Assembly (NCBI RefSeq): GCF_017302975.1
Contig: NZ_JAFIMT010000003.1
From: Corallococcus exiguus
GTDB taxonomy: Bacteria; Myxococcota; Myxococcia; Myxococcales; Myxococcaceae
DNA: 64,000 bases
Direction: 5' to 3' (one strand)
This document shows positions 48,415 to 64,000 of this stretch, one piece after another (within the stretch, counting starts at the first letter, position 1; every line of letters starts with the position of its first letter). Under the pieces are notes generated by a model, which was given only the letters and a program-made list of their open reading frames with translations, was not told the origin of the DNA and ran no database searches. Made by a program: the position numbers and the translations under genes.

Positions 48415-50371
48415 TCAGGCGGCGCGCGAGCCCTTGTCCTCGAAGTAGGCGCGGCGGGCACGGGCGCAGGTGGGGCACTGCCACTGCACCAGGGTGAGGT
48501 GGCGATCGCCCAGGATGACGGCCTCGTGGCGGAGCGACTCCCGTGGGGCCTCGCGGGTGGCTCCGCAGGCGCAGCGCAGCCGGCCCAGCGTGGACAGCAG
48601 CTCCTGCGGGCTGGTGATGGGGATGGCGGTTCCCGCGCTGTCGCCCCGGTGATCCGCGTCGAACTTGCGTGCGAAGGCGCGGCGCCGGCCCCAGGCGCGG
48701 CCCTTGCGCCAGAGCGCCACCGGGCCGCCCTGCGCGATGACGAACCACAGCACGAGGCATGTCGCGATGACGCCCAGGAGGATGGCACCCGCCTCGCCGG
48801 ACGGCACGGACGAAGCCTGGTCGCGGGCGGCCCGGCTCCTGAGTTGGATGGCGTAGCCGCGCTGGGCCTCGGTGGCGCGCACGGCCTTCACGTACTCGGC
48901 GATGCGCTCGGGCGGGACCGAGTCCGCGGTGCTGCGGTAGCTGTAGTCGAGCAGCAGCGTCTTGCCTTCGGCGCGGGTGTCGGCCACGAAGCGGAAGGCC
49001 GGACCGTCCACGACCTCGTACTCCGTTTTGACAGGGGGCAGCTCGCCGGCCTTCAGCGTGATGCGGTGGCGGGCGAAGACGGGGTGCTCCACCTCCAGCG
49101 GGAAGGCGCGGTGGGAGTAGTTCGGCACGGCGAGGTACTGGCGCAGGCCATGCGCGCGGAACTCCCGGCGACCGTCCGAGGACCAGAAGTCCTCGATGCG
49201 GTAGTGCTCCTGCGTGACGAGCACGTTCGTCACGGTGTCGTCGTCCACCGTCAGGGGCTTCGCGATGGAGATGTCCGCGTCCGTCTTCGCGTAGTAGTTG
49301 AAGTAGAGGCGGGACACCTCGGACAGGGACGTGCCCGCGAGCGCGCGGCGCATGGAGTTGGCGGCCGCCCCCGTGCGCGTGGTGACGACGTCGAGTGTCG
49401 AGGCCCCGTCGCGGCCCATCGAGACGTAGGTCTCGTCCACGAAGATGGAGGGCTCCGTCAGCGTGGGCGTGGGGATGACGGAGAGCGCCGTGGTGGAGGG
49501 GGCGACGAGGAGGGCCCGGCCGTAGGAGGGCGGCTCGTAGCTGTCCAGCCCGCCGCGCTCCAGCGTCGCCGTGGGATCCACCCACAGCTCGCGGCCGGCC
49601 ACGGTGGCGTGGACGATGACGTGGTTGAACGCGGTGGAGGTGGGACGCAAGCCGTCCAGCAGCTGCGTGAGGTCCGTGCTCACGAGCGCCGGCTGCGCTT
49701 CGATGCCCAGCCCCTTGAGGAGCGACACCAGGAGGAGTGACTTGTCCTTGCAGTCGCCGAAGCGGCGCTGGAGGACCTCGTCGGGCGGATGGGGCTGGTG
49801 GGAGTTGGGGCCCATCTCGATGCCCAGGTAGCGCACCTCGTCCTGGACGAAGCGAAGCGCGGCGAGGAAGCGCGCCTCCGGGGTGGGCTCCTTCGACAGC
49901 CGACGGACCTCCTGCTCCAGCGACTTCGAGCGGGCGGGCACCTGGAACAGCGTGGAGGCCCAGCGCGCGACGTCGTTCCAGTCCTTGTATTCGCTGAACT
50001 GGATCCACGGGTAGACGGGCTGCCAGCCGGGGACGTCGTCCTCGTGGCGGACCGCGGGCACGTGGTGGCGCTCCAGGATGATTTCACGCTCGCCGTTCAG
50101 CATCGACTCCGAGCGCGACAGGCCCGGCGCGGCGAAGTCCCGGATGAAGAGCGTGCGCCCCCGCCCTTCCGGCCACAGCAGCCGGAAGGGCGGGGGCTGG
50201 AGGAATGGGAAGCGGCTTCACCCACGCGGCGGGAGGCCCGACGCGGAACGGCCTGGCGTTCGTCGCCGCCGGTGCTGCCCCGGCGCTCAAGGACAGACAC
50301 AGACACAGCAGCAGGACGGACACCGGAAAGAAGCCCGGTGCCAGGAGGACGGAACGGAAGGTTCGGCGCAT
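48415..50371 (-). pseudogene. Transglutaminase-like (DUF3857 + TGase core) protein, apparently frameshifted near 50200-50220
   Basis: The main frame (48415..50103, extendable to 50217) carries the TGase core RRFGDCKDKSLLLVSLLKGLG but lacks an N-terminus. A +1-frame ORF (50084..50371) supplies a signal peptide and PFRVGPPAAW. Both frames read naturally on opposite sides of about 50210. Confidence 0.5.
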
Positions 50372-50549
50372 GGAGGAAGGGCACTCATCATGAAGCCCGG
50401 ATGACGCGCCGGGCAAGGCGCCCCCTGGGACACCTGGCGAGCGGCCCCGCTTCATTCACCAGTGAAAACCGTCATGCAGGCCAAGCCTGGAATTGCCGTG
50501 ACACGGGCTAGGGTTCCGGCCATCGGTTGGAAGGCCCAGGAGGCTTGGA

Positions 50550-51560: not shown

Positions 51561-51659
51561 GGTAGGGCCTCCGGACCTGGTGGCCGGCCCGGTCTTCAAA
51601 ACCGGTGAGGGACTGCGAGAGCAGTCCCTGGCGAGTTCGATTCCCGTGCCCTACCGCCA
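51561..51659 (+). tRNA. selC: tRNA-Sec (anticodon TCA), 99 nt
   Basis: 8-bp acceptor stem GGTAGGGC/GCCCTACC, G discriminator plus CCA. Anticodon arm CCGGT-CTTCAAA-ACCGG. 8-bp long extra arm GGGACTGC-GAGA-GCAGTCCC. T-loop GTTCGATTC. Overall layout resembles E. coli selC as recalled. Confidence 0.7.
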
Positions 51660-51770
51660 ATACTTCCGAGGGGTTACGCCCCCATACTGCCACCTTGGCA
51701 GTACTGGACTCGTCCACACGCGTCCGCATGAGTCTACCCGACGTCGTTAGCGTGTCGTTAGCGCAGGACG

Positions 51771-52685
51771 CTATGGAAACGTCACGTTGCCGAGGGTGAC
51801 TGTGCGCGGTCCGGTCTCCTCCCACAGTTTGAGGGTGAAGGTCGCTCGGGATGACGCAACAGTGGATTCAGCCTCCACAATGACGCGGGCTGGAACACCG
51901 GGCGTGATGGGTTCCCCCTGCCACACTCGCAGAATCGTCAACTCCTCACCGGTCTTGCTCTTGAGCGTCGCGCCCTTTGCCGTCCAAGGCGATGCACCGG
52001 CCTTCACGGAAAGCCCGACCTCCACCGCCACCCGCGAAGTGGATCGGTAGGACTGGAGCATGGTCGCGTCAACTCCATTGCCAGACACCTGGGAGATGGA
52101 ATTGGTCATGATGCGTACTGACACACCTTCAGCATTCATGGCCCCTGTAGAGATGAGCCCGGTCAGCCCCCCCGGCGCAGCACGTTCAGCAATCAATCGG
52201 GCATTCTCTTCCTGATAGCGCAACGCAACCGCGCGAGCTTCCCGCGCTTCCTGTTGATACGTCTCTATCGTCCTCTTCTCTCGATACACTTCGACAAGGG
52301 GCTCCGCTTTCGCAGGATGCACCTTCAGCAAGAACGACGCGTTCGCAGGCGCTGCACCGTCTCGGAAGCGCACCGTCAGAAGAAACCGCTCGCCAGGAGT
52401 GACCTGCGATGAAGGCATCACTCGAATGACCGTTTGCCCGGCATCCAAAATGGAGAAGGACTCACTGCCCTCTAGCGCCACTGCATCGCGCACAAGCTCA
52501 GCATCGAAGAACAGACCGGTTGAGAGGCCAGGGCTCACAATAATTTCCGGCGTCACCTGACCACCTTCCGGCATCAATTCAATGCGGCGGATCGCCTGCG
52601 CCGAAACCGCAGGTTCAGCCTGTGCGAGGGTCGCGCCGCTCGGCAGAAAAAGCCCCAGGAGGAGTACCCATGAACAAGAAGACAC
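51771..52685 (-). CDS. Secreted hypothetical protein (possibly the Myxococcus-specific paralogous family often paired with kinases)
   Basis: Signal peptide (WVLLLGLFLPSGATLAQA). 304 aa. Lower GC. Lies 26 bp downstream of the kinase gene. Confidence 0.55.
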   Translation of the reverse strand: MSSCSWVLLLGLFLPSGATLAQAEPAVSAQAIRRIELMPEGGQVTPEIIVSPGLSTGLFFDAELVRDAVALEGSESFSILDAGQTVIRVMPSSQVTPGERFLLTVRFRDGAAPANASFLLKVHPAKAEPLVEVYREKRTIETYQQEAREARAVALRYQEENARLIAERAAPGGLTGLISTGAMNAEGVSVRIMTNSISQVSGNGVDATMLQSYRSTSRVAVEVGLSVKAGASPWTAKGATLKSKTGEELTILRVWQGEPITPGVPARVIVEAESTVASSRATFTLKLWEETGPRTVTLGNVTFP

Positions 52686-52711
52686 GCTGCGGTTACTCCT
52701 GAGTGAACGTG

Positions 52712-54553
52712 CTACTCGAACTCGCTGACGGCTCGGACAGCGGCAGCGGAGAAAATACGAGCACGAGTAGGAGAGTCATCACCGGCTTCTCGCTCCATCC
52801 CCTTAACTCCCTCTACACTGAGCAGTTCAAAACACACTGGGAAGCCATCTCCCTGCGGAGGAGTGGCCCAAGTGAAGCGGCCATAAACACGATCACTCAC
52901 GACAGCACGACCCGACAGCACCGTACCCGCCGGCATACCTGCTTCGTCATAGAGATGAACTTCAATAGGTCCATCTCCCACAGAAACAATTTTGGGTCGG
53001 CCTAGGACAATAAGCGCATGGAGCCTGCGTCCGACCTTAACTTCCCGTTTCGCCATGGCCTTCACGGCCCCCTCCGGGCACTGCTCGGGAGGAGGTGCCG
53101 GGCGCACCTGCGGCCCCGGGCACGCGAGCGCCGTACATGCTGCCGCCGTGCCGACAGCACGGGCCATGACGCTCATGCCCTTCTTCGCGGGCTTTGAGGG
53201 GAGCTGAAGGGGCTGCGTCTCTTTCGGCTGCATCGTCACGGTGGCTGAAACCTCCTGGAGCGTCGCGGGGAGAGCGACGGCCGCAGCGGTGGCCTCCGGC
53301 CCGGTGGGAGCTGCGGCGCGGTCAGCTTGAGGTGACTTGCCAGAGGGCGCTACTTCCTGACGGATGAGGACCAGACCAACGACGCGTGACGTCCCAAATC
53401 CCCACACTGCCCCCGCCAGAACGAGCACCACTGCAAGCGCTGCCCAAGCGCGCAAGGCTCCACGCCGCGCAGGCGTCACACGCTCGGTCGTCGCGGGAAG
53501 CGGTGTCGCGTCCGCAGCAGCCGCGCCCACCGCTGGCACCTGCTTTCGGGGAATGCGTTTGCCTCGACGAGGGCGGTGGCGTGGCTGGTGCCGCCACTGC
53601 TCGAAGCTGTCGATGTCCTCTCCTTCCGTCGTCGCGGAGTCCTCGTCGTAGGCGTCGCAGAGCGGCACGTCCCACGTCGCGTCCGCGCCGCGTAGCGTCT
53701 GCTCCAGCGACTCGCAGAGAGTCTGGGCGCTGGGCGTGCGCGCCTCGGGGGTCTTCTCCAGCAGCCGCAGGCACACGTCGCTCAGCGCCCGAGGCACCCG
53801 CTCGTTCTCCTCGTGCGGCAGCGTGGGTGCGCTGGAGAGAATCGCCTCCGTCAAGCTGGCGCCGTCCTCGCCATCGAAGGGGAATCGCCCCGTCAGCAGC
53901 CGATAGGAGACGAGGCCCAGCGCCCACAAGTCGTCCGCCGGGCCGGCTGTGTAACGGGCGTCCGGTGCCTCCCGGTGTGCACGCAGGAAGCGCCATGCCT
54001 CCGGGGCGCGGTAGTCCACCGTCCCAGGAGGGAGGATGTCCGCCGTCAACTCACGCGCGCCCGTGTAGTCGCCGATGCCGAAGTCCACCAGCTTGGCCAG
54101 GCCGTCCGAGGCGCGCACCATGACGTTGGCCTCCTTCACGTCCCGGTGCACCACCCCATCCCCATGGGCAGCGGCGAGCGCCCGCGCCACGCCCAGCAGC
54201 GCGCGGGCCGCCTGCCTCGCCGTGGGGTTCTCCGCGTCGGCCCAGGCGTCCAGCTGACGCCCTTCCACGTGCTCCATGACGATGACGACGAATTGCGGCT
54301 GGGCCACCGGCCAGTAGCCATGGCCCAGAATCCGCACCACGTTGGGGTGGTGCAGGCGAGTAAGGATGGAGACTTCGCGCTCCGCCCGCTCCCCTACGCG
54401 CGGCACATGCAGCAGCTTCAGGGCGAAGCGCTGGCCTTCGCAGTGCGCGAGGTACACCGTGCCGAAGCCGCCCTGCCCCAGCTGGCGCTCCACCGTGTAG
54501 CCCAGCACCTGGGCCCCAGGAGACAGCACGGCCGGAGGTGGCCCGCACATCAT
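52712..54553 (-). CDS. Transmembrane Ser/Thr protein kinase with extracytoplasmic C-terminal domain
   Basis: Kinase subdomains GQGGFGTVY, ALK, HRDVKEANV, DFG and APE. TM helix (ALAVVLVLAGAVWGF). About 200-aa C-terminal domain. Confidence 0.8.
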   Translation of the reverse strand: MMCGPPPAVLSPGAQVLGYTVERQLGQGGFGTVYLAHCEGQRFALKLLHVPRVGERAEREVSILTRLHHPNVVRILGHGYWPVAQPQFVVIVMEHVEGRQLDAWADAENPTARQAARALLGVARALAAAHGDGVVHRDVKEANVMVRASDGLAKLVDFGIGDYTGARELTADILPPGTVDYRAPEAWRFLRAHREAPDARYTAGPADDLWALGLVSYRLLTGRFPFDGEDGASLTEAILSSAPTLPHEENERVPRALSDVCLRLLEKTPEARTPSAQTLCESLEQTLRGADATWDVPLCDAYDEDSATTEGEDIDSFEQWRHQPRHRPRRGKRIPRKQVPAVGAAAADATPLPATTERVTPARRGALRAWAALAVVLVLAGAVWGFGTSRVVGLVLIRQEVAPSGKSPQADRAAAPTGPEATAAAVALPATLQEVSATVTMQPKETQPLQLPSKPAKKGMSVMARAVGTAAACTALACPGPQVRPAPPPEQCPEGAVKAMAKREVKVGRRLHALIVLGRPKIVSVGDGPIEVHLYDEAGMPAGTVLSGRAVVSDRVYGRFTWATPPQGDGFPVCFELLSVEGVKGMEREAGDDSPTRARIFSAAAVRAVSEFE

Positions 54554-54928
54554 GGCGTCCGTCCTTCGGGATCCCAGGCCTCTCGCATGCGGCGTCCTCC
54601 CAGCGGGGCGCGGACCCTACCAGAAGCGTGAGAAGCCCAGGAATCCCTCCCTCTGGCTGTACCCTCCAGAAAGGACTCATGGAGTCTATCCAACTCCACC
54701 TGACCTCCAGCATTCACCCTTGGCCGACCTTTGTGCTGCGCGCTGGGCGTCACCCAGACGAGCTGATGGGCCCTGCGCCCGCTTCCAGCGACTCCCCTGC
54801 GCGGCACCAACTCCTCCTGCGTGTGTGCACCCTGGAAGAGCCCCGGGTGCGGGCGCTGCTCCTTCTCCTGCCCGAGTCCCGGTAAGCGGCCCGGCCGTGC
54901 ACGCCCTCGGCTACGCTGCGCGCCCGCC

Positions 54929-55288
54929 ATGAACGAAGAACTCGGCATCACCATCGGCACGGAGGCCCGAGCGGCCCGCCAGCACCTGGGCCTGACGCAG
55001 GCCGAAGTCGCGGAGCGCATTGGGCTGGTGCACCCCGTCTACAACCGCCTGGAGCGAGGGAAGATGCTTCCCAGCGTCCCCTCCCTCTACCGTCTCTGCC
55101 GGGAGCTGCGCGTCTCTCCCGAGAAGCTGATGGGACTCACCGCGACGGGCGACGTGCGTAAGGGCACGAAACCCAAGCCCAAGGAAGAGGACGCCCCGGA
55201 GCTGCGGCGCCTCCTCCACCTCGCACGCAAGCTGGATGAGGAAGGCCTCGCGGCCCTCCTCCACGTCGCCTCGGCCCTGGCGCGCTGA
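54929..55288 (+). CDS. XRE-family HTH regulator
   Basis: HTH_XRE (ARQHLGLTQAEVAERIGLVHPVYNRLERGK). ATG at 54929. 119 aa. Confidence 0.65.
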   Translation: MNEELGITIGTEARAARQHLGLTQAEVAERIGLVHPVYNRLERGKMLPSVPSLYRLCRELRVSPEKLMGLTATGDVRKGTKPKPKEEDAPELRRLLHLARKLDEEGLAALLHVASALAR

Positions 55289-55292
55289 AGCC

Positions 55293-56462
55293 TTACTCCC
55301 GCTTCAAGCCCTCCAGTTCGTGGGACTCCAGCCCCTCGGGAAAGAAGCCCTCCTCGCCGAACTCCACCTCGTCACGAAGGGCGCTGCCTTCCGCTAGCAC
55401 CTGGGCCCACTCCGCTGCGGCTTCCTGCCGGCCGTAGCCCGGGTGGCGCCTCGCCAGGGCGACGCGCATCGCATCGCGCATGTCCGCTGCCGTAGCGAAT
55501 CGCTTCTCGGGCTTGGCGCGCAGCGCGACATGCAGCATGGCCTTCACGTCCGGGGAGAGTGAGGCCACGACCTCCTCGACATCCTCCGGGCCGAAGCTGG
55601 CCAGCAGCACCTGCATTTGCGTCAGCGGCAGGGAGGGGATGATTTCCGGCTGGAGGTTGAGCATCCCCTTGAGCGGGCCCGGCACGTCCTCCACGTCGAA
55701 GAGGTGCTTGCCGGTGAAGAGTTCCACCAGCAACACGCCCAAGCCAAAGACGTCGGAGCGCGGAGAAAGCGGCTGCCGCGTCAGGTACTCCGGAGAGGCG
55801 TAGGCCACGTCTCCACGCACGAGGCTGGCGGGTGACTCCTCGCGCCCGACCACCAGCGAGTAGGCCGCGCCGAAGTTCGTCAGCTTCACTTCGCCTTGAG
55901 TCCCCACGTAGACGTGCCGGGGGTTGACGTCGCGGTGGATGACGCCCAGCGACTTGCCGTCCACGTCCGTCAGAGTGTGCGCGTGGTGCAGGGCCTCCGC
56001 GACTTCCGCGCCGACATAGAGGGCGAAGGCCTCGGAGACGGGCCGGCCACGCGCCACCCCCGCACTCACCAGCGTCTCCAGCGAAGGGCCGTCCACGTAC
56101 TCCATGACGGCGTGCAGGGCGCCTTTGTGCACCTTGCGGTGGAAAACCGTGGCGATGGCCGGGTGGCGCAGACGGAAGGCCAGCTGAATCTCCTCTCCCA
56201 GCCGCGTGCGCTGCATGAAGGTGGAGGGGTTCGCCAGCCGCCGCACGAAGCAGTAACCGGGCAGCTTGTTGCCGCGCTCCGTGAAGCGCTGGGCCAGCAT
56301 CAGCACCTCGCCCGTCTCCATCCGCACCAACTCGCGGACGGCCTCGTAACGGATGCCGTCAATGGTGAAGAGGTGCAGGGGGCGCTCAGGCGTCGGCGGA
56401 AGCTGCCTGCGGCGCGCGGAGGTTTCGGTGCGCGCCAGGTCGTCAGTTGTCGTGTCGGGCAT
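55293..56462 (-). CDS. Ser/Thr-kinase-like protein, predicted pseudokinase (NFG instead of DFG, no beta3 Lys)
   Basis: HRDVNPRHVYV catalytic-loop-like region, KLTNFGAAY, and ASPEY. No GxGxxG/VAIK equivalents found. Confidence 0.65.
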   Translation of the reverse strand: MPDTTTDDLARTETSARRRQLPPTPERPLHLFTIDGIRYEAVRELVRMETGEVLMLAQRFTERGNKLPGYCFVRRLANPSTFMQRTRLGEEIQLAFRLRHPAIATVFHRKVHKGALHAVMEYVDGPSLETLVSAGVARGRPVSEAFALYVGAEVAEALHHAHTLTDVDGKSLGVIHRDVNPRHVYVGTQGEVKLTNFGAAYSLVVGREESPASLVRGDVAYASPEYLTRQPLSPRSDVFGLGVLLVELFTGKHLFDVEDVPGPLKGMLNLQPEIIPSLPLTQMQVLLASFGPEDVEEVVASLSPDVKAMLHVALRAKPEKRFATAADMRDAMRVALARRHPGYGRQEAAAEWAQVLAEGSALRDEVEFGEEGFFPEGLESHELEGLKRE

Positions 56463-56560
56463 GGCTCCTCGGAAGGCGGGAGAATGGCGCGGCGGCGCCT
56501 CCCGAGGAGTTTGAGTCTAGTTGACTTTTAAAGTCCATATTCATGAACTCCAAAAGTTAA

Positions 56561-56857
56561 TCACATCATCTGGGCGAGGGCGAAGCCTGCCCCGGCGCCG
56601 AGTACCACGGCCAGCACCACAACCAGGACAGGGACGGAGCGCGGCTGCTGACGGAGCACCTCGTTCTCCGCCTGGAGGCGCCGCAGCTCGCGGGCAGTGA
56701 GGATGCAGCGCTCCGTGGACAGCCAGCATCCCTCGGACACGGCCACCGTGCGCCCATCCTGAAGCCTCACGGTGGCACGGGCCACGTCCAACACTTCGCC
56801 TTCCGCACGCGCACGCCCTGCCACCAGCAGGGCTAACGCCAGCACCAGGCCCCTCAC
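56561..56857 (-). CDS. Small membrane/secreted protein
   Basis: Signal peptide (LVLALALLVAGRARA) and a C-terminal TM helix (VLVVVLAVVLGAGAGFALA). 98 aa. Confidence 0.4.
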   Translation of the reverse strand: MRGLVLALALLVAGRARAEGEVLDVARATVRLQDGRTVAVSEGCWLSTERCILTARELRRLQAENEVLRQQPRSVPVLVVVLAVVLGAGAGFALAQMM

Positions 56858-56886
56858 CGCGCAGCAGCGCCCCCAACGCTTCGCCA

Positions 56887-57177
56887 GTGAGCCCTTGGGC
56901 CGCCACCCTGTCGGTCTGCCTTATCGCTTACCTGGGGGTGGACTCTGCTTGGAATCTGATCGCGGGGTGGCGGCAGCTTGCCAAGGACGTGGCGGTCGCC
57001 ACGACCTTCGACGAGGTACGCACGGCTGGCGAAAAGTACGGCAAGGTCATGGGCGAGAACGCGGCGCGCGTCTTCGTCATGCTCGCGACCGCCGCCATTG
57101 GGAGCACCGCAGGGCTGGCGATCAAGGCACCGGGGCTTCCGGGCTCGGTACAGGCGGTGAGGAAGGGGCTTTGGTGA
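56887..57177 (+). CDS. Hypothetical small protein
   Basis: 96 aa. Its stop overlaps the next gene's ATG (TGATGA). Confidence 0.4.
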   Translation: MSPWAATLSVCLIAYLGVDSAWNLIAGWRQLAKDVAVATTFDEVRTAGEKYGKVMGENAARVFVMLATAAIGSTAGLAIKAPGLPGSVQAVRKGLW

Positions 57178-57527
57178 TGAAGTTGCAGGACCTTGTCGAG
57201 CAGTTCGCCGAGAACGTGGTCGCGCAGAACGAGGCCATCTTCCGGGGAGACGCCAAGACTGGAAACAAGCACGCCAGGAAGTACGGTGCCGCCGTCGATA
57301 AGCTCCTGGCCCACGGTAATGCCGGACGTGACGCGCTCTGCGTACTGCTCAAGCATGAGCGCATGGACGTGCGCGTGATGGCTGCCGCGCATCTGCTCCG
57401 CTATCGGACGGCCGAGGCCAAAGCGGTCCTGGAGGAAGCGGCCAAGGGGCAGGGCCTGGTCCCGTTCGGAGCGCAGCAGGCATTGAAACGCTGGGAAGAA
57501 GGAACCTGGGCGCTCGATCCAGAGTAG
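57177..57527 (+). CDS. Hypothetical helical-repeat (HEAT-like) small protein
   Basis: 116 aa. Helical repeat character (RDALCVLLKHERMDVRVMAAAHLLRYRTAEAKAVLEEAA). Confidence 0.45.
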   Translation: MKLQDLVEQFAENVVAQNEAIFRGDAKTGNKHARKYGAAVDKLLAHGNAGRDALCVLLKHERMDVRVMAAAHLLRYRTAEAKAVLEEAAKGQGLVPFGAQQALKRWEEGTWALDPE

Positions 57528-57701
57528 CCGTGAGCGCAGCCGATGGCCCCTGACCCTGCCGACCCCACCCTCGTACCCAAGCTGTACCCAAGATGAACGG
57601 ACGTGGGTGGACCTCCATGGACGCTCCACCTACCCCGCTCCAGAAGGAAACCGGCCGACCCTCAATCCCTCCGGGCACCTCGCGGATCGGGGTGGCGGGG
57701 A

Positions 57702-57769
57702 TTCAACACCGGTGAGGGGCTGCGAGAGCAGTCCCTGGCGAGTTCGATTCCCGTGCCCTACCGCCAATA
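57702..57769 (+). repeat. Partial direct copy of the 3' ~65 nt of tRNA-Sec (att-like)
   Basis: ACCGGTGAGGGGCTGCGAGAGCAGTCCCTGGCGAGTTCGATTCCCGTGCCCTACCGCCAATA is identical to 51601..51662 except for one base. The 5' half of the tRNA is absent here. Confidence 0.85.
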
Positions 57770-57896: not shown

Positions 57897-59099
57897 ATGC
57901 TCACGCCCCCCGACGTATCCACTGAAACGCGCGCTGCACGGGTTCGCAAGGCGCTCTCCGAGGAACTGTTCTTCGTCCGCGGCGTCAGCCTGCTTCTCGT
58001 GGTGCTGGTCCATGTGATTGGCGTGGAGCCCTTCCAGGGGTTGCGCAAGCTCTTCTCCCCGGAACGCGCGGAGCTGCGTTTCGCAGCGGAGCTCATCCAC
58101 AGCTTCAACATGGCCGTGATGATCATCGGCTCGGGTGTGGCGGTGTCACTCTTCGGCGCGCCGGAATCGTCCTTCCGGGAGTTCGCGCACAAGAAGCTGC
58201 GCAAGCTCGTCGTCCCAATGTTGGTGTGGGCCCCCGTCTTCCTCTACACCCATGAACTCTCCCAGGCGCGCCCGCGGACGCTTGAGGGATGGCTGGTGCT
58301 GCTGGGCCAGTTCCCTGCTGCGTGGTTCCCTCCGTACGCCATCTTCTGGTTCATTCACGCCCTGGTGGGCTGTACCTGTCTGGCGTGGGTGTATCAGCGC
58401 ATCGTGCCTGCCCGGTACCACTGGAACGGGCTGAGCTACCTGGCCCTGTCCTGGGTGCTTTATGCCGCTGTCGAGGCCCTGGACTCGCCCCTGTCTGGAA
58501 TTGGGATGAGATACCTCCGCTTCATCCTCTTCTGGAACTGCCTCTTCGGTCTGGGAATGAGCCTGTCTCCCTGGCTCGAACTGGCGCGCAGCCGGCTGTC
58601 CCTGTTGCCTCTGACGCTCCAGGGACTGGTGCCCTTGGGGTTCCTGGGACTGCTGGTCTCGTTCCATGTCTCGGGGCTCGCGGAGGGACATCTGGATCCG
58701 CGACTGATCACGGGGCCGCTGGGCTTCTGCATGCAATTCACCCTGACCCTCTTCTTCCTGGGTGCCGCGTGGAAGGGATTGGCGAGCCGGATTGTCTACC
58801 TGGGCTCGATCAGCATGCCCCTCTATCTCTTTCACATCTATTTCGTGTCCGGGATGCGACTGGCTTTGGGCAAGGTGCTGCCAGGAGCGCCGCTCGTGCT
58901 GCACCTGGCGCTGGGCGCTCTCGTCGGACTGTTGGGCCCCCTGGGCCTCTACCTCCTCCTGGAGAGGAACCGTGCCTTCCGCTGGAGCATCGGTCTGCGG
59001 GGTGTCCCTTTGGACACGCCCGGCCTCGCCGCAGATGAGTCCCCTGGCACCCGGCCACGGCGGGTGGAGGCATCAACCATGAAAGGGGCTGACGTATGA
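57897..59099 (+). CDS. Acyltransferase family 3 (membrane O-acyltransferase)
   Basis: About 10 predicted TM helices with conserved N-terminal FFVRGVSLLLVVLVH and SMPLYLFH motifs. 400 aa. Confidence 0.75.
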   Translation: MLTPPDVSTETRAARVRKALSEELFFVRGVSLLLVVLVHVIGVEPFQGLRKLFSPERAELRFAAELIHSFNMAVMIIGSGVAVSLFGAPESSFREFAHKKLRKLVVPMLVWAPVFLYTHELSQARPRTLEGWLVLLGQFPAAWFPPYAIFWFIHALVGCTCLAWVYQRIVPARYHWNGLSYLALSWVLYAAVEALDSPLSGIGMRYLRFILFWNCLFGLGMSLSPWLELARSRLSLLPLTLQGLVPLGFLGLLVSFHVSGLAEGHLDPRLITGPLGFCMQFTLTLFFLGAAWKGLASRIVYLGSISMPLYLFHIYFVSGMRLALGKVLPGAPLVLHLALGALVGLLGPLGLYLLLERNRAFRWSIGLRGVPLDTPGLAADESPGTRPRRVEASTMKGADV

Positions 59100-59221: not shown

Positions 59222-62200
59222 ATGGACGTGATGCGAGCCAGCAGGGCCCTGCTGCTGGGACTGGTCTGTGTTGCAGCAGGCTGTAGTAGCAAGCCTCCAG
59301 AAGAGAAGACGCTGCCCCACAGCGCTTCGCCGTTGGTGGTGGAGGGGTGGACCGAGACCGCGCCCATGGCGGAGGCTCGGAAGTACCACGCGGGTGTCGT
59401 GCTGCCTTCCGGCAAGGTGCTGGTGACGGGCGGATACAACGCCAGTGGCTATCTCTCCTCCTCCACGCTCTTCGACCCCGCGACCGGTGCATGGACAGTG
59501 GCCGCGCCCATGCCGGAGGCCCGACAGAGCCACGTCCTGACGCTGCTGCCTTCGGGCAAGGTGCTCGTGGTGGGCGGAGAGAATGCGACGGGCCGCCTGG
59601 CTTCCGCGGCGGTGTATTCCCCGGACACCAATACCTGGGCCTCCGCGGGAAGCTTCGCCACGGGCGTGGCTCGGGCGGCCATGACGGCGACGGTGCTGCC
59701 CTCGGGCAAGGTGCTGGTGGCCGGCGGTGGCAACGGTACGGGGGCGTCCTTCCGGGTGGATGTGTATGACCCGGCCTCCGGAAGCTGGAGTGTCGGCCCC
59801 AACCTGGGCGCGCCGCGTCGCAACCACACGGCGACACTGTTGCCTTCGGGCCAGGTGCTGGTGGCGGGCGGCGTCGAGAGCGGGAGCCTGGCGACTGCCG
59901 AGGTGTACACCCCCACGAGCAATACCTGGACGGCGACGGGGAGCCTTGCGACAGCGCGCTACGACCATACGGAGACGCTGCTGCCTTCGGGCAAGGTGCT
60001 GGTGGTGGGTGGCCGTAACAGCAGCGGGCTGCTGGCGACAGCGGAGGAGTATGACCCGAGCACCGGGCAGTGGAGTGCGACGGGCGCGCTGGGCGCGGCC
60101 AGGATGCTGCACACCGCCACCCTGCTGAGCACCGGGAAGGTGCTGGTGGCCGGCGGAATGTCTGGCAGCGCCGCGACGGCTGCCCTGGCGAACACGGAAC
60201 TGTACGACCCTGGCACCCGGCAGTGGAGCGCGGCGACGCCGATGGCTGGTGCGCGGTATTCGCATGTGGCGGTGTCGCTGGGGGCGCATGCCAAGGTGTT
60301 GGTGGTGGGCGGTATCGGCACCAACGCCGCGAGCCAGAAGACGGCGGAGGTGTATGGGTATGACGCGTGCGCCGGAGTGACGTGCAACAACTCCCCAGGG
60401 TCCTGCCATGAGGCGGCGGGAACTTGCAGCAATGGGGTGTGCAGCTACGCGCCAAAGGCGACCGGGGCCACCTGTGACGACGGCAATGCGTGCACCGGGG
60501 CGGACGTGTGCAACGGCGCGGGCGTGTGCGCGGGGAGTGCCACCCAGTGCGGCAGTCCTCCGGGGCAGTGCTACGAGACGGCGGGAACGTGCAGCGAGGG
60601 GACGTGCTCCTACTCGTACAAGGCGACGGGCGCCGCGTGTGATGATGGGGATGCGTGTACGGTGGACGAGACGTGCAACGGGGCGGGCGGGTGCTCGGGC
60701 ACGCCGGTGACGTGCAACAGCCCGCCGAGCCAGTGCTTCGAGTTGGCGGGGACGTGCAGCGATGGGACGTGCACCTATGCGCCGAAGGCGACGGGCACCG
60801 CTTGTGATGATGGCAATGGGGGCACCATCAATGACGTCTGTAATGGGACCGGCGTCTGCGCCGGAGTTCCGGCCTGCACGACGCCGCCGGACGCCTGCCA
60901 TGGCTCCCCGGGCACTTACTCCAACGGGGCGTGCACATACCCGCCGAAGGCCGCGGGCACCCTTTGCGATGATGGCAACGCTTGCACGACCGGTGACGTC
61001 TGCAACGGTTCTGGCTCCTGCGGCGGCTCGGCACTGAGCTGCAACAGTCCGCCCAGCCAGTGCTACGAGGCCGCGGGCACCTGCTCCAATGGCACCTGTA
61101 GCTATGTGCCGAAGTCCTCGGGTGCGAGCTGCAATGATGGAAACGCCTGCACAACGGGAGACGTCTGCAACGGCGCTGGCACCTGCGGCGGCGCGGCGCT
61201 GAACTGCAACAGTCCTCCCAATCAGTGCTACCAGTCCGCGGGCACCTGCTCCAATGGCTCGTGCTCCTATGTGCCGAAGGCCGCGGGCGCCAGCTGCGAT
61301 GACAGCGACTCGTGCACGACGGCCGATGTCTGCAACGGTGCGGGCTCCTGTGGCGGCTCCCCCCTGAGTTGCAGCACCGCGAGCACCAACTACTGCAGCG
61401 GCAATGACATCCGGCGGACTACTGGCACTGGCACCTGCAGCGGCGGATCCTGCCAGTCCACCGACGTCCTCGTGCAGACGTGCCAGACCGGCAGCAGCGG
61501 CCCCTACTGCAGCGGCAACGGCGCCTACCAGACCGTCTATGGCGGCTGCTCCAACGGGGCCTGCACGTCCTCCCAGCAACTCATCGAGTCGTGCTCCACC
61601 TCCAGCAGCAACTACTGCAGCGGCAACACCGTCCGGAAGCTCACCGGCACGGGTTGCAGCGGCGGCAACTGCGGCTCCTCCGACACCCTCGTCCAGACGT
61701 GCTCCACCTCCAGCAGCAACTACTGCAACGGAAATGACGTGCGGAAGACCACCGGCACCGGCTGCAGCGACGGCAACTGCGGCTCCACCGACACCCTCGT
61801 CCAGACGTGCCCTACCGGCACCAGCAGCCCCTTCTGCAGCGGCAGCAGCGTCTACCGGACCCTCAATTCCGGCTGCAGCGGAGGCTCCTGCGCGTCCAGC
61901 CAGCAACTCATTGAGACGTGCTCCACCTCCAGCAACAACTACTGCAGCGGCAACACCGTCCGGAAGACCACCGGCACCGGCACTTGCAGCGGCGGCTCCT
62001 GCGGCTCCACCGACACCCTCGTCCAGACGTGCTCCACCGCGAGCAGCAACTACTGCAGCGGCAATGACTTGCGGAAGACCGCGGGCACTGGCACCTGCAG
62101 CGGCGGTTCCTGCGGCTCCACGGACACCCTCGTGCAAACGTGCCAGACCGGCACCAGTGGCCCCTTCTGCAGTGGCAACGGGGCCTACCGGACCGTCTAT

Positions 62201-63118
62201 GGCGGCTGCTCCAGCGGTGCCTGCACTTCTTCCCAGCAACTCATCGAGTCGTGCTCTACCTCCAGCAGCAACTACTGCAGCGGCAACACCGTCCGGAAGG
62301 TCACCGGCACTGGATGCAGCGGCGGCTCCTGCGGCTCCACCGACACCGTCGTCCAGAACTGCGCCACCGGCAGTAGCAACTACTGCAGCGGCAACACCGT
62401 CCGGAAGACCTCCTACACCGGTTGCAGCGGTGGCTCCTGTGGCGTCACCGACACGCTCGTCCAGACGTGCGCGACGGGCACCAGCAGCCCCTTCTGCAGC
62501 GGCAACAGCGTCTACCAGACCGTCAATGGCGGCTGCAGCGGAGGCTCCTGCTCGTCCAGCCAGCAGCTCGTCCAGACGTGCTCCACCACGAGCACGAACT
62601 ACTGCAGCGGCAATGATGTGCGGAAGAGCACCGGCACCGGTTGCAGCGGCGGCTCCTGCGGTTCATCCGACACCTTCGTCCAGACGTGCTCCACCGCGAG
62701 CACTACCTATTGCAGCGGCAATAACGTGCGGAGGACCACTGGCACCGGTTGTAGCGGTGGCAACTGTGGCTCCACCGACACCTTGGTCCAGACGTGCTCC
62801 ACCGCGAGCACGACCTACTGCAGCGGCAACACCGTCCGGAGGACGACTGGCACGGGTTGCAGCGGCAGTGGTACCTGCGGCTCCACGGACACCCTGGTCC
62901 AGACGTGCAACAGCCAGTTCGAGATGTGCAGCGACGGCGCATGCGTTTCCAACGATGGGCTCTGGCAGTTGGTGGGTTCGTGCAGCACGAGGTGCCCATC
63001 CAATGAATGCTGGCCCCCCGTCAACCCGGACGGACAGGACTGCAGGCCGGTGGGTTCTACCTGCTTCGCTTACGGCGGTCCCACCGGTCGTAACGAATGG
63101 AAGTGCGCGCCGTACTGA
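59222..63118 (+). CDS. Giant lipoprotein: Kelch beta-propeller + ~7 myxo-type Cys-rich repeats (CDDGNACT...CNG) + ~18 short Cys/Ser/Gly repeats
   Basis: Lipobox LVCVAAGCSS. Kelch blades (VLPSGKVLVTGG repeated 7 times). About 48-aa repeats C..SPP.QC.E.AGTCS.G.C.Y.PKA.G..CDDGNACT..DVCNG.G.C. About 36-aa repeats CSGN.VRKTTGTGCSGGSCGSTDTLVQTC.TSSSNY. 1298 aa. Confidence 0.8.
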   Translation: MDVMRASRALLLGLVCVAAGCSSKPPEEKTLPHSASPLVVEGWTETAPMAEARKYHAGVVLPSGKVLVTGGYNASGYLSSSTLFDPATGAWTVAAPMPEARQSHVLTLLPSGKVLVVGGENATGRLASAAVYSPDTNTWASAGSFATGVARAAMTATVLPSGKVLVAGGGNGTGASFRVDVYDPASGSWSVGPNLGAPRRNHTATLLPSGQVLVAGGVESGSLATAEVYTPTSNTWTATGSLATARYDHTETLLPSGKVLVVGGRNSSGLLATAEEYDPSTGQWSATGALGAARMLHTATLLSTGKVLVAGGMSGSAATAALANTELYDPGTRQWSAATPMAGARYSHVAVSLGAHAKVLVVGGIGTNAASQKTAEVYGYDACAGVTCNNSPGSCHEAAGTCSNGVCSYAPKATGATCDDGNACTGADVCNGAGVCAGSATQCGSPPGQCYETAGTCSEGTCSYSYKATGAACDDGDACTVDETCNGAGGCSGTPVTCNSPPSQCFELAGTCSDGTCTYAPKATGTACDDGNGGTINDVCNGTGVCAGVPACTTPPDACHGSPGTYSNGACTYPPKAAGTLCDDGNACTTGDVCNGSGSCGGSALSCNSPPSQCYEAAGTCSNGTCSYVPKSSGASCNDGNACTTGDVCNGAGTCGGAALNCNSPPNQCYQSAGTCSNGSCSYVPKAAGASCDDSDSCTTADVCNGAGSCGGSPLSCSTASTNYCSGNDIRRTTGTGTCSGGSCQSTDVLVQTCQTGSSGPYCSGNGAYQTVYGGCSNGACTSSQQLIESCSTSSSNYCSGNTVRKLTGTGCSGGNCGSSDTLVQTCSTSSSNYCNGNDVRKTTGTGCSDGNCGSTDTLVQTCPTGTSSPFCSGSSVYRTLNSGCSGGSCASSQQLIETCSTSSNNYCSGNTVRKTTGTGTCSGGSCGSTDTLVQTCSTASSNYCSGNDLRKTAGTGTCSGGSCGSTDTLVQTCQTGTSGPFCSGNGAYRTVYGGCSSGACTSSQQLIESCSTSSSNYCSGNTVRKVTGTGCSGGSCGSTDTVVQNCATGSSNYCSGNTVRKTSYTGCSGGSCGVTDTLVQTCATGTSSPFCSGNSVYQTVNGGCSGGSCSSSQQLVQTCSTTSTNYCSGNDVRKSTGTGCSGGSCGSSDTFVQTCSTASTTYCSGNNVRRTTGTGCSGGNCGSTDTLVQTCSTASTTYCSGNTVRRTTGTGCSGSGTCGSTDTLVQTCNSQFEMCSDGACVSNDGLWQLVGSCSTRCPSNECWPPVNPDGQDCRPVGSTCFAYGGPTGRNEWKCAPY

Positions 63119-63325
63119 ATGAATGTGTGAGTCGGAGTCCGCCCACTCACACCAGTTGAACTCAGCGTGGAAGCCTCCGTGCGCCATCAACGCACGGAGG
63201 CTTCGCCTTGACGGGGTGCTCCGCGGCGCCCAAGAGTTCGGCGTGGATGAGTCTGTCGCCATGCTGGCGGGCTCAACCAAATTTCATGGAGGCCCCTCTG
63301 TGCGCCTCCATTCCCTGGAGTTGTC

Positions 63326-64000
63326 ATGGACGCGTGGAGAGTCAGCAGGGCTCTGCTGTTGGGGCTGGTCTGTGTCGTCGTGGGCTGTAGTAGCAAACCA
63401 CCAGAAGAGAAGACGCTGGCTCACCAGGCTTCGCCACTGACGGTGGAGGGGTGGACCGAGACCGCGCCCATGGCGGAGGCTCGCAAGTACCACGCAGGCG
63501 TCGCGCTGCCGTCAGGCAAGGTGCTGGTGACGGGCGGGTACAACGCCAGTGGCTATCTCTCCTCCTCCACCCTCTTCGACCCCGCGACGGGCTCCTGGAC
63601 GGCGGCCGCGTCCATGCCGGAGGCCCGGCAGATCCACGCGCTGACGCTGCTGCCTTCGGGCAACGTGCTCGTGGTGGGCGGAGAGAATGCGACGGGCCGT
63701 CTGGCTTCCGCGGCGGTGTACTCCCCGGCCACCAATACCTGGGCCTCCGCGGGAAGCTTCGCCACGGGCGTGGCTCGGGCGGCCATGACAGCGACCGTGC
63801 TGCCCTCGGGCAAGGTGCTGGTGGCTGGCGGTGGAAACAATACGGGGGCCTACTTCAAGGTGGACCTGTATGACCCGGCCTCCGGAAGCTGGAGTGCCGG
63901 CCCCAATCTGAGCGCGCCGCGCCGCAACCACACGGCGACGCTGCTGCCTTCGGGCCAGGTGCTGGTGGCGGGCGGCGTCGAGAGCGTAAGCCTCGCGTCG
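63326..64000 (+). CDS. Paralogous Kelch lipoprotein (3' partial, runs off window end)
   Basis: About 90% identical N-terminus (MDAWRVSRALLLGLVCVVVGCSSKPPEEKTL...). The ~120 bp upstream region, including the RBS context, is also duplicated. Confidence 0.75.
   Translation, partial: MDAWRVSRALLLGLVCVVVGCSSKPPEEKTLAHQASPLTVEGWTETAPMAEARKYHAGVALPSGKVLVTGGYNASGYLSSSTLFDPATGSWTAAASMPEARQIHALTLLPSGNVLVVGGENATGRLASAAVYSPATNTWASAGSFATGVARAAMTATVLPSGKVLVAGGGNNTGAYFKVDLYDPASGSWSAGPNLSAPRRNHTATLLPSGQVLVAGGVESVSLAS

What the first reader, a model, noticed from the sequence alone, without database searches (positions are those of the whole stretch)
51561..57769. tRNA-Sec gene followed by a ~6.1 kb insertion bounded by a 65-bp direct repeat of the tRNA 3' end (integrase-less island)
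A 99-nt tRNA with anticodon TCA, an 8-bp acceptor stem and a long extra arm (tRNA-Sec features) sits at 51561..51659. Its 3' 62-65 nt are repeated almost perfectly at 57702..57769 (one mismatch). This is the classic attL/attR signature of site-specific integration into a tRNA gene. The first ~1.4 kb after the tRNA has visibly lower GC than the roughly 70% background. The cargo is unusual for an island: a TM Ser/Thr kinase with a secreted partner, an XRE regulator, a DFG-less pseudokinase and two small coupled ORFs. No integrase or excisionase is present, which suggests a decayed or satellite element, or integrase loss.
Basis: seen in the sequence. Interest (0 to 1): 0.7.

Follow-up and report, generated by a model that had tools for sequence, protein, structure and literature searches.

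The report
Decayed prophage scar at tRNA-Sec
The stretch after the selenocysteine tRNA gene of this Corallococcus genome is wreckage from at least two mobile elements that inserted into that tRNA gene, mainly the surviving end of a dead prophage carrying a kinase signalling cassette; this is a real but ordinary kind of genomic scar.

Summary
A tRNA-Sec gene lies at 51561-51659. Its last 65 nt plus 3 downstream nt are repeated at 57702-57769 (68 nt, 2 mismatches, not 1). The lowest GC of the whole window lies just after the tRNA.

"Integration scar without integrase" is right, but this is not one island.
- **Left part, 51663-56860:** the att-proximal arm of a siphovirus-like temperate phage. 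C. exiguus and C. coralloides KYC2213 continue from the same genes into endolysin, tail fibre, tape measure and major tail genes. A C. exiguus contig holds the attP-type junction: integrase, P arm, the same 68-nt core, P' arm, DUF2381.
- **Deletion:** the window lost everything from a phage lysis gene through the integrase.
- **Right part, 56861-57769:** a truncated sitA5 toxin gene, a DUF2019 gene in the immunity position, and a tRNA remnant. Its flanking arm matches a second element type, with integrase next to the tRNA, and not the phage.

The "odd cargo" is a kinase-like/XRE/kinase/DUF2381 cassette that recurs across Myxococcaceae and sits at the att end of several prophages. No empty site was found; the closest strain carries 2.4 kb of other debris. 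This is a new member of a known kind, of modest interest.

The parts
51561..51659 (+). tRNA-Sec (selC) gene, the integration target
   Evidence: ARAGORN; Rfam RF01852 at 71.5 bits. It follows the methyltransferase gene in 11 Corallococcus loci including the window.
51595..51662 (+). Left copy of the 68-nt core repeat (the attL core), running from the anticodon loop to 3 nt past CCA
   Evidence: Homology of the window to the attP-type contig L028 ends at 51594.
51663..51770 (.). Phage P' arm, the spacer between the core and the DUF2381 gene
   Evidence: Shared with L001, L027 and the attP-type contig L028. Absent after the tRNA in the other species.
51771..52685 (-). Secreted DUF2381/TIGR02268 protein, 304 aa. 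Low GC (0.60) and allelically variable.
   Evidence: TIGR02268 at 285 bits (cut-off 76) and PF09544 at 150 bits. 97% aa identity to L001 but 56-60% to L025, L026 and L027.
52712..54553 (-). Ser/Thr kinase, 613 aa, with an intact catalytic set, a transmembrane segment and a variable extracellular C-terminal domain
   Evidence: Pkinase at 139 bits. GQGGFG, HRD and DFG motifs present. Kinase domain 93-94% identical but ectodomain 71-73% identical to L025-L027.
54745..54885 (+). Remnant of the second XRE gene: only the last 46 codons remain
   Evidence: tblastn with the 115-aa XRE of L027 matches residues 70-115 only. About 210 nt present in L001 are missing here.
54929..55288 (+). XRE-family HTH regulator, 119 aa
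   Evidence: HTH_3 at 51 bits. 96% identical to the L027 gene.
55293..56462 (-). Kinase-like protein, 389 aa, a likely pseudokinase (NFG for DFG, HRDVNPRH, no Gly loop). Member of a large paralogous family.
   Evidence: Pkinase at 93 bits; motifs. 320 homologues with E<=1e-30, several per genome.
56561..56857 (-). 98-aa ORF with a signal-like N-terminus and a hydrophobic C-terminus. It is the last gene of the phage lysis region that survives.
   Evidence: In L025, L026 and L027 it follows the endolysin and a 167-aa gene. 91% aa identity. No family match.
56858..56886 (.). Deletion junction. Homology to the prophages of L001, L026 and L027 ends at 56860.
   Evidence: blastn end points.
56887..57177 (+). 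Stub of a sitA5 polymorphic-toxin gene: only escort-domain positions 191-261 of 262 plus 21 residues. No lipoprotein signal and no toxin domain.
   Evidence: NF050093 SitA5_escort, E 4e-33, 115 bits, below the 160-bit full-length cut-off. A differently truncated copy is in AB038B.
57180..57527 (+). Intact DUF2019/HEAT-like gene in the position of the cognate immunity gene (orphan sitI-like)
   Evidence: PF09450 at 29 bits. It starts 3 nt after the sitA5 stop. Deleted copies lie next to tRNA-Sec in L004 and L020.
57536..57701 (.). P arm of a different ('type A') element, adjacent to the remnant
   Evidence: 92% identical to L021 7158-7323, about 90% to L020, 76% to L002. Unrelated to the phage P arm of L028.
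57702..57769 (+). Right copy of the 68-nt core: the displaced 3' part of tRNA-Sec (attR-type remnant)
   Evidence: The same remnant is present in L021 (66 nt), cut to 21 nt in L020 and degenerate in L002.
57897..59099 (+). Acyltransferase_3 gene, the right-hand flank outside the repeat
   Evidence: PF01757. Shared flank in AB038B and L021. Itself patchy among myxobacteria.

Best explanation
The interval is a composite scar of at least two tyrosine-integrase insertions into the 3' half of the tRNA-Sec gene of a Corallococcus chromosome (C. exiguus group).

How the phage integrates. A siphovirus-like temperate phage carries an attP of the form integrase, P arm, 68-nt copy of tRNA-Sec (from the anticodon loop to 3 nt past CCA), P' arm, DUF2381. 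Recombination between this core and the tRNA gene rebuilds an intact tRNA from the phage-borne 3' half. It puts the phage's accessory cassette (DUF2381, transmembrane kinase, two XRE genes, kinase-like protein) next to the tRNA. It leaves the integrase at the far end beside a displaced tRNA 3' copy.

What happened here.
- Only the P' arm, the cassette and one lysis-region ORF survive (51663-56860).
- A deletion removed the rest of the prophage, its integrase and its own attR.
- The deletion ended inside a sitA5 toxin gene of an older resident island.
- That older island's DUF2019 immunity-like gene, att arm and tRNA remnant (57180-57769) remain.

Shown: the tRNA gene, the repeat, the mosaic break at 56860, the prophage context in relatives, the attP-type junction, the absence of an integrase, and the mismatch between the two att arms.

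Inferred: the order of events, and that the segment can no longer move on its own.
For: - tRNA and repeat.
- Synteny to ten Corallococcus loci is conserved up to the tRNA 3' end. Eight of them diverge there, and the downstream content differs even between two C. exercitus strains.
- Window 51660-56860 is collinear with C. coralloides KYC2213 (L001, 90-93%) and C. exiguus (L027, 84-90%). Both continue into a 167-aa gene, M15 endolysin, J-like tail fibre, tape measure, major tail protein and tail terminator.
- L028, from the same C. exiguus assembly, reads: DUF2381 of the window's allele (89% nt), P' arm, 68-nt core, 93 nt, 378-aa integrase, DNA methylase, DNA polymerase A. It has no tRNA gene. 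Its homology to the window stops at 51594.
- That integrase is 44% identical to the PF00589-positive integrase that sits next to tRNA-Sec in L006 and L017. It keeps the RHSFATW and GH..TT..Y motifs.
- The window arm 57536-57701 matches L021 at 92% but not the phage P arm.
- L006 and L021 overlap at 97% identity. Together they give tRNA-Sec, integrase, primase-like gene, cassette, PIN_12, remnant, then the acyltransferase flank.
- AB038B (98% core identity) has the sitA5/DUF2019/arm/remnant debris but not the phage attL junction.
- No integrase in the window.
Against: - No lysogen with both ends of this phage was captured, so the phage's own attR was not seen directly.
- L028 could be a free circular genome, a junction between tandem prophages, or less likely an assembly artefact.
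- A variant of the phage with a different integrase/P-arm module and a sitA5-DUF2019 pair at its integrase end would also give the window's structure in one integration plus one internal deletion.
- The type A element is reconstructed from two assemblies, not from one contig.
- Homology between AB038B and the window in the debris is 87-92% over short stretches, lower than the 97-98% of the core. Strict orthology of the debris is therefore not proven.
Confidence: 0.75

Rival explanations
1. One element, one event. The whole 6.1 kb between the repeats is the internally deleted remnant of a single prophage. Its integrase end carried a sitA5-DUF2019 pair and a P arm of the 57536-57701 type.
For: sitAI loci are often on mobile elements (PMC8546572). 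The same P-arm family occurs in L021 together with a kinase cassette. Both repeat copies end in the same 3 nt (ATA) past CCA, as in the phage attP of L028.
Against: The only attP-type junction seen has an unrelated P arm. AB038B has the sitA5/DUF2019/arm/remnant block with a different, non-phage junction at the tRNA. In the L006+L021 composite, this P arm ends an island whose integrase lies next to the tRNA.
Confidence: 0.15
2. A mobilisable element without its own integrase, satellite-like. The 6.1 kb is still a unit that a related phage's integrase can excise and move in trans, because both att cores are 97% intact.
For: 66 of 68 core positions are identical. Phages with a matching core and integrase circulate in the genus.
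Against: There is no replication, packaging, excisionase or regulatory takeover gene. The two arms come from different element types, so arm-type binding sites probably do not match. KYC2213 and AB038B each share only one part of the segment, not the unit.
Confidence: 0.07
3. Not an integration scar. The second copy arose by local duplication or by gene conversion of the tRNA 3' end, and the genes between the copies are ordinary chromosomal genes.
For: The cassette also occurs at sites without tRNA-Sec or phage genes (L023, L024). Its genes evolve under purifying selection, with dN/dS 0.07-0.22.
Against: The repeat boundary coincides with the attP core boundary in L028. Integrases sit at this tRNA in other species. 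Occupancy of the site varies between and within species. The GC minimum of the window lies here.
Confidence: 0.03

Closest known systems
Islands and prophages integrated at selC/tRNA-Sec in other bacteria (E. coli LEE and other selC islands; Pseudomonas Pf phages)
   Same: The target gene is the same. An intact tRNA at one end and a displaced 3' copy at the other mark the insertion. Occupancy is highly variable, and some occupants are small and lack an integrase (abstracts of PMC6174562, PMC7545054 and PMC7549136 seen; otherwise my own knowledge).
   Different: The phylum is different (Myxococcota) and so are the integrase lineage and the cargo. Here two unrelated element types use the same core and the scar is a chimera of both.
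Cryptic (defective) prophages that keep only accessory genes next to the att site, such as E. coli K-12 remnants and the lambda b region (my own knowledge)
   Same: Deletion removes the structural and lysogeny modules. Att-proximal accessory genes stay intact and under purifying selection.
   Different: The retained module is a five-gene kinase/XRE signalling cassette rather than single-gene morons. The phage family has no relative among 50,697 deposited phage records for its tail fibre.
Ser/Thr kinase + HTH-Xre + DUF2381 gene clusters of Myxococcus xanthus (PMC3986340; bioRxiv 10.64898/2026.08.28.747804)
   Same: The genes are of the same kinds: kinase-like protein, Xre genes, kinase and a DUF2381/TIGR02268 protein. 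They occur in multiple paralogous copies per genome. In M. xanthus, expression of several such kinase and Xre genes changes in tan-phase variants.
   Different: Those clusters were described as chromosomal duplications, not as phage cargo. No function has been shown for any member. One-to-one orthology with the window's cassette was not tested here.
SitA5/SitI outer-membrane-exchange toxin-immunity loci of myxobacteria (PMC8546572)
   Same: The stub matches the SitA5 escort-domain model and is followed at 3 nt by a small gene in the immunity position. Such loci often lie on mobile DNA.
   Different: Only the last ~70 residues of the escort domain remain. There is no lipoprotein signal and no toxin domain, so it cannot be a working toxin. 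The SitI5 immunity proteins mentioned in the preprint are Imm11-family, not DUF2019, so the immunity role here rests on position only.
Myxophage Mx8-type integration into a tRNA gene (my own knowledge, not tested here)
   Same: A temperate myxophage uses a tyrosine integrase and an attP that shares sequence with the 3' part of a tRNA gene.
   Different: The tRNA is different (tRNA-Asp for Mx8, as I recall). Here attP lies between the integrase and the cassette. No sequence similarity to deposited phages was found.

Membership tests
tRNA-targeting integrative element or prophage (tyrosine integrase) | Intact tRNA gene at one boundary | tested here: met
   tRNA-Sec at 51561-51659 by ARAGORN and Rfam.
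tRNA-targeting integrative element or prophage (tyrosine integrase) | Direct repeat of the tRNA 3' part at the other boundary | tested here: met
   68 nt, 97% identical, 0 expected by chance.
tRNA-targeting integrative element or prophage (tyrosine integrase) | Integrase gene inside the element | tested here: not met
   No PF00589 hit among the ORFs of the interval. 71 family integrases give no credible tblastn match in 64 kb.
tRNA-targeting integrative element or prophage (tyrosine integrase) | A free or junction form carrying attP with the same core | tested here: met
   Met in a relative, not in the window: L028 reads integrase, P arm, 68-nt core, P' arm, DUF2381.
tRNA-targeting integrative element or prophage (tyrosine integrase) | Variable occupancy of the site in related genomes, including an empty site | tested here: inconclusive
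   Occupancy varies in every genome compared. No truly empty site was found; the minimum is 2.4 kb in AB038B.
Tailed-phage prophage | Structural, lysis and replication modules | tested here: not met
   None in the window. They are present only in the collinear relatives L001, L025-L027 and L028. The window holds a remnant, not a prophage.
SitA5 polymorphic lipoprotein toxin | Lipoprotein signal, full escort domain and C-terminal toxin domain | tested here: not met
   Only model positions 191-261 of 262 plus 21 residues. 115 bits against a cut-off of 160.
SitI-type immunity gene | Small gene immediately downstream of sitA that protects against the cognate toxin | not testable with these tools
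   The position is met: the gene starts 3 nt after the stub and hits DUF2019. Protection cannot be tested in silico.
Myxococcus TIGR02268/DUF2381 kinase cluster | TIGR02268 protein above the curated cut-off, next to a Ser/Thr kinase and Xre genes | tested here: met
   285 bits against a cut-off of 76. Adjacent 613-aa kinase, one intact and one truncated XRE gene, and a 389-aa kinase-like gene. The same five-gene order is in L021 and L023-L027.
Phage satellite (PICI/P4-like) | Own integrase, replication initiator or primase, and genes that redirect helper packaging | tested here: not met
   None of these was found by Pfam, NCBIfam or PADLOC.
PD-T4-6 kinase anti-phage defence | Specific membership rather than general kinase-domain similarity | tested here: inconclusive
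   Both kinases hit many PD-T4-6 profiles (up to 195 bits) and other kinase models alike. This is generic Pkinase similarity, and PADLOC has no curated cut-off here.

The most novel reading that the evidence does not exclude
The five-gene cassette (kinase-like protein, two XRE regulators, transmembrane Ser/Thr kinase, secreted DUF2381 protein) is a phage-borne, allelically diversified sensing module.
- The kinase ectodomain and DUF2381 co-vary as a matched pair in two allele classes, while the cytoplasmic parts stay 93-96% identical.
- The cassette rides at the att end of two unrelated elements that target tRNA-Sec.
- It is kept under purifying selection after the prophage dies.

If so, part of the large myxobacterial Ser/Thr kinome, including the M. 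xanthus clusters tied to phase variation, would be domesticated phage cargo. Its original role might have been superinfection exclusion or recognition of kin or phage.
Probability: 0.2. Interest if true: 0.6.

Novelty: new member of a known kind. Interest (0 to 1): 0.33.

Why it matters
- **Integration hotspot:** tRNA-Sec is an integration hotspot in Corallococcus, as selC is in enterobacteria. Two integrases 44% identical to each other use the same 68-nt core from opposite sides.
- **Possible genetic tool:** the attP and integrase pair (contig JABEKZ010000427) is a candidate site-specific integration tool for Corallococcus, in the way Mx8 and Mx9 are used in Myxococcus.
- **Origin of the kinase cassette:** the Ser/Thr kinase/Xre/DUF2381 cassette, so far treated as a chromosomal paralogous family, also occurs as prophage cargo with a co-varying extracellular pair. 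That gives a testable lead on its function.
- **Annotation caution:** two att repeats do not prove a single element between them.

Tried and rejected
- **Exact-protein look-ups:** the window's methyltransferase and acyltransferase are not in the collection, so this genome is not on record. One integrase representative (P0221) was also not on record.
- **IMG/VR scan:** the 30-nt tRNA 3' end gave no viral contig with this core.
- **Deposited phages:** tblastn of the prophage tail fibre found nothing. The kinase-like protein gave only distant kinase hits.
- **PADLOC:** only generic kinase and HTH similarity, no defence-system call.
- **Solved structures:** no match for the phage integrase, and Pfam misses it too. 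Its family assignment rests on 44% identity to the PF00589-positive L006 integrase and on conserved motifs.
- **Empty site:** sought through the acyltransferase's homologues. That gene is itself patchy (two close relatives only), and neither has an empty site.
- **Weak integrase-like hit at 29991-30224:** it lies in a lipoprotein with a TDAGT repeat and was rejected.
- **Satellite reading:** considered and rejected for lack of any replication, packaging or recombination gene.
- **Literature on DUF2019:** nothing on immunity.

Full report
**1. The observation**

ARAGORN finds one tRNA gene in the 64-kb window: tRNA-SeC (anticodon tca) at 51561-51659 on the + strand. Rfam's tRNA-Sec model matches 51561-51655 over its full length with 71.5 bits, against a gathering score of 47.

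The repeat is 68 nt, 51595-51662 versus 57702-57769, with two mismatches. It starts at the U before the anticodon and ends 3 nt after the encoded CCA. The 30-nt 3' end occurs exactly twice in the window. None of 100 shuffles gave a match, even with three mismatches allowed.

An alignment of tRNA-Sec genes from nine other Corallococcus loci explains the two mismatches.
- The A at 51612 is peculiar to the window's functional gene. All other species, and both remnants, have G.
- The C at 57707 is peculiar to the window's remnant.

The GC dip is real. The 1.5-kb block from 51501 is the lowest of the whole window, 0.601 against 0.690 +/- 0.025.

**2. Genes between the repeats**

GC3 frame analysis with Pfam and NCBIfam gives the following order.

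| Coordinates | Strand | Feature |
|---|---|---|
| 51771-52685 | - | Secreted DUF2381/TIGR02268 protein (285 bits, cut-off 76) |
| 52712-54553 | - | 613-aa Ser/Thr kinase with complete catalytic motifs, a membrane segment and an extracellular C-terminal domain |
| 54745-54885 | + | Last 46 codons of a second XRE gene |
| 54929-55288 | + | Intact XRE gene |
| 55293-56462 | - | 389-aa kinase-like protein lacking the Gly loop, with NFG for DFG |
| 56561-56857 | - | 98-aa ORF with no family match |
| 56887-57177 | + | 96-aa ORF matching only positions 191-261 of the 262-position SitA5 escort-domain model |
| 57180-57527 | + | DUF2019/HEAT-like gene, starting 3 nt after the previous stop |

No ORF matches an integrase. 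71 integrases of the relevant family give no credible tblastn hit anywhere in the window.

**3. The site in relatives**

One scan of species-representative genomes with the upstream methyltransferase returned 19 loci. Further loci came from look-ups of homologues.
- The window is a Corallococcus of the C. exiguus group: 98% nt identity to Corallococcus sp. AB038B and to C. exiguus in the core genes.
- In ten other Corallococcus loci, the methyltransferase is followed by tRNA-Sec and synteny with the window runs up to the tRNA's 3' end. Eight diverge there. KYC2213 and C. exiguus continue through the shared 5.2 kb.
- What follows the tRNA differs in nearly every genome, even between two C. exercitus strains.
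- In C. llansteffanensis (L006) and C. interemptor (L017), a 381-aa PF00589 integrase sits directly after the tRNA, followed by a DUF3854/DUF5906 primase-like gene.

The site is therefore an integration hotspot.

**4. The left 5.2 kb is one arm of a prophage**

Window 51660-56860 is collinear with C. coralloides KYC2213 (L001, 90-93%) and C. exiguus (L027, 84-90%). Homology stops at 56860, three bases beyond the start codon of the 98-aa ORF.

In those genomes the sequence continues into a 167-aa gene, an M15 endolysin, an 800-aa J-like tail fibre, a tape measure protein, a major tail protein and a tail terminator. Related prophages with the same cassette at the same end lie at other chromosomal sites (L025, L026).

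The decisive piece is a 4.8-kb contig of the same C. exiguus assembly (L028). Its order is:
- DUF2381 gene of the window's allele (89% nt);
- the spacer 51663-51770;
- the 68-nt core;
- 93 nt of unrelated sequence;
- a 378-aa integrase, a DNA methylase and a family-A DNA polymerase.

L028 holds no tRNA gene, and its homology to the window's attL ends at 51594. This is the attP arrangement, seen either in a free phage genome or at the junction of tandem prophages. The integrase is 44% identical to the L006 integrase and keeps the RHSFATW and GH..TT..Y motifs.

Integration at the core therefore puts the cassette beside the tRNA, and the integrase at the far end beside a displaced tRNA 3' copy. 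The window has lost everything beyond the 98-aa ORF.

**5. The right 0.9 kb is something else**

The arm left of the window's remnant (57536-57701) is unrelated to the phage P arm. It is 92% identical to the arm left of a 66-nt remnant in L021.

L021 overlaps L006 at 97% identity. The two together reconstruct a second element of about 15 kb: tRNA-Sec, integrase, primase-like gene, a divergent copy of the kinase cassette, a PIN_12 gene, the remnant, then the same acyltransferase flank as the window.

The same arm and remnant occur elsewhere. They are cut down to 21 nt in AB038B and degenerate in C. carmarthensis.

AB038B, the window's closest relative, lacks the phage junction at the tRNA. It holds 2.4 kb of debris:
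- two DUF2019 gene ends;
- a SitA5 escort fragment (positions 127-207) fused to a DUF2019 end;
- a scrap of the primase-side sequence of the second element.

C. aberystwythensis has an internally deleted DUF2019 gene next to its tRNA-Sec.

The simplest reading has three steps. An older island left sitA5, DUF2019, its arm and the remnant. The phage then integrated into the intact tRNA. A deletion then ran from the phage's 167-aa gene through its integrase and attR into the sitA5 gene. On this reading the two repeat copies of the window come from different events. A one-event alternative, a phage variant with a different integrase-side module, is not excluded, because no lysogen with both ends was captured.

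**6. The cargo**

The order kinase-like, XRE, XRE, kinase, DUF2381 recurs in the following places:
- in prophages (L001, L025-L027, with the DUF2381 end of it at the attP junction in L028);
- in the second element type (L021);
- at sites with no phage genes: L023, next to a tRNA-Leu gene and a DUF6310/DUF5953 pair, and L024, next to a Tox-REase-5/Imm52 pair.

The kinase-like protein has 320 homologues at E<=1e-30, several per genome. In M. xanthus, kinase and Xre genes of such clusters change expression in tan-phase variants (PMC3986340). A recent preprint attributes to those authors the idea that Ser/Thr kinase/DUF2381 clusters regulate phase variation.

Among the prophage-borne copies, identity to the window varies sharply by part.

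| Part | Identity in L025-L027 | Identity in L001 |
|---|---|---|
| Kinase-like protein, XRE, kinase domain | 93-96% | 93-94% |
| Kinase ectodomain | 71-73% | 95% |
| DUF2381 | 56-60% | 97% |

These two variable parts are exactly the low-GC stretch. dN/dS of the cassette genes is 0.07-0.22. Synonymous divergence of the cassette from the C. exiguus copy (0.25-0.27) is several-fold that of the neighbouring core gene (0.07). The two lineages therefore acquired related phages independently. PADLOC gives only generic kinase similarity.

**7. Comparison with known systems, and verdict**

Integration into selC/tRNA-Sec with a displaced 3' copy is classical. So are variable occupancy and remnants without an integrase (for pointers; otherwise my own knowledge). 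Prophage decay that spares att-proximal accessory genes is classical too.

What is specific here:
- the phylum;
- two integrases 44% identical to each other using one core from opposite sides;
- an undescribed phage family, with no tail-fibre match in 50,697 phage records;
- a chimeric scar;
- a kinase cassette with a co-varying extracellular pair as phage cargo.

I rate it a new member of a known kind, interest about 0.33. The cassette is the one lead worth following.

Noticed in passing
window 51771-53359; compared with L001, L025, L026 and L027: The secreted DUF2381 protein and the extracellular C-terminal domain of the adjacent kinase diverge together in two allele classes (56-60% and 71-73% identity). 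The kinase domain, the XRE regulator and the kinase-like protein stay 93-96% identical. The variable part is also the low-GC part. This suggests a co-evolving interacting pair.
   Followed up: partly
window 48415-50455 (- strand): The DUF3857/transglutaminase-like gene is 827 aa in AB038B. Here it is split into two frames by a deletion of about 443 nt at 50188-50191 (residues 89-237 missing). Eight related loci all keep that stretch. It is a likely pseudogene or an assembly error.
   Followed up: partly
window 59222-63118 and 63258-64000 (+ strand): Two tandem paralogous giant genes (1298 aa, and a second that runs off the window). Each has N-terminal repeats of about 144-150 nt (Kelch-like by eye, not tested), 165-nt repeats, and many 108-111-nt Cys-rich repeats. 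Their first 300 nt are 88% identical. Both are conserved in AB038B and L021.
   Followed up: no
L028 (C. exiguus JABEKZ010000427) and L027 (JABEKZ010000024): One assembly holds a prophage at tRNA-Sec with one DUF2381 allele. It also holds an attP-type junction with the other allele. This implies two related phages in one strain, either in tandem or with one episomal.
   Followed up: partly
L023 9529-15133 (C. praedator): A copy of the kinase cassette lies about 400 nt from a tRNA-Leu(taa) gene, beside a DUF6310/DUF5953 gene pair. It may be another tRNA-associated remnant.
   Followed up: no
L018 7076-10527 and L004 17850-20113: In C. exercitus AB043A and C. aberystwythensis, the region downstream of tRNA-Sec contains genes whose N-termini look to me like contractile-tail sheath and tube proteins, which might mean an extracellular contractile injection system. 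No family search was run on these ORFs.
   Followed up: no
window 57897-59099: The acyltransferase_3 gene just outside the repeat has lower GC (0.64) and a patchy distribution. The only close homologues are in AB038B and in one ENA assembly (with its matching Logan contig); the next are Pyxidicoccus and Hyalangium at 74-75%. The variable region may therefore extend beyond the remnant.
   Followed up: partly
protein P0178: The integrase that sits next to tRNA-Sec in L006 and L017 is 93% identical to a UniProt entry from Archangium disciforme (Q5ZPC0). This element type therefore crosses genus boundaries.
   Followed up: no
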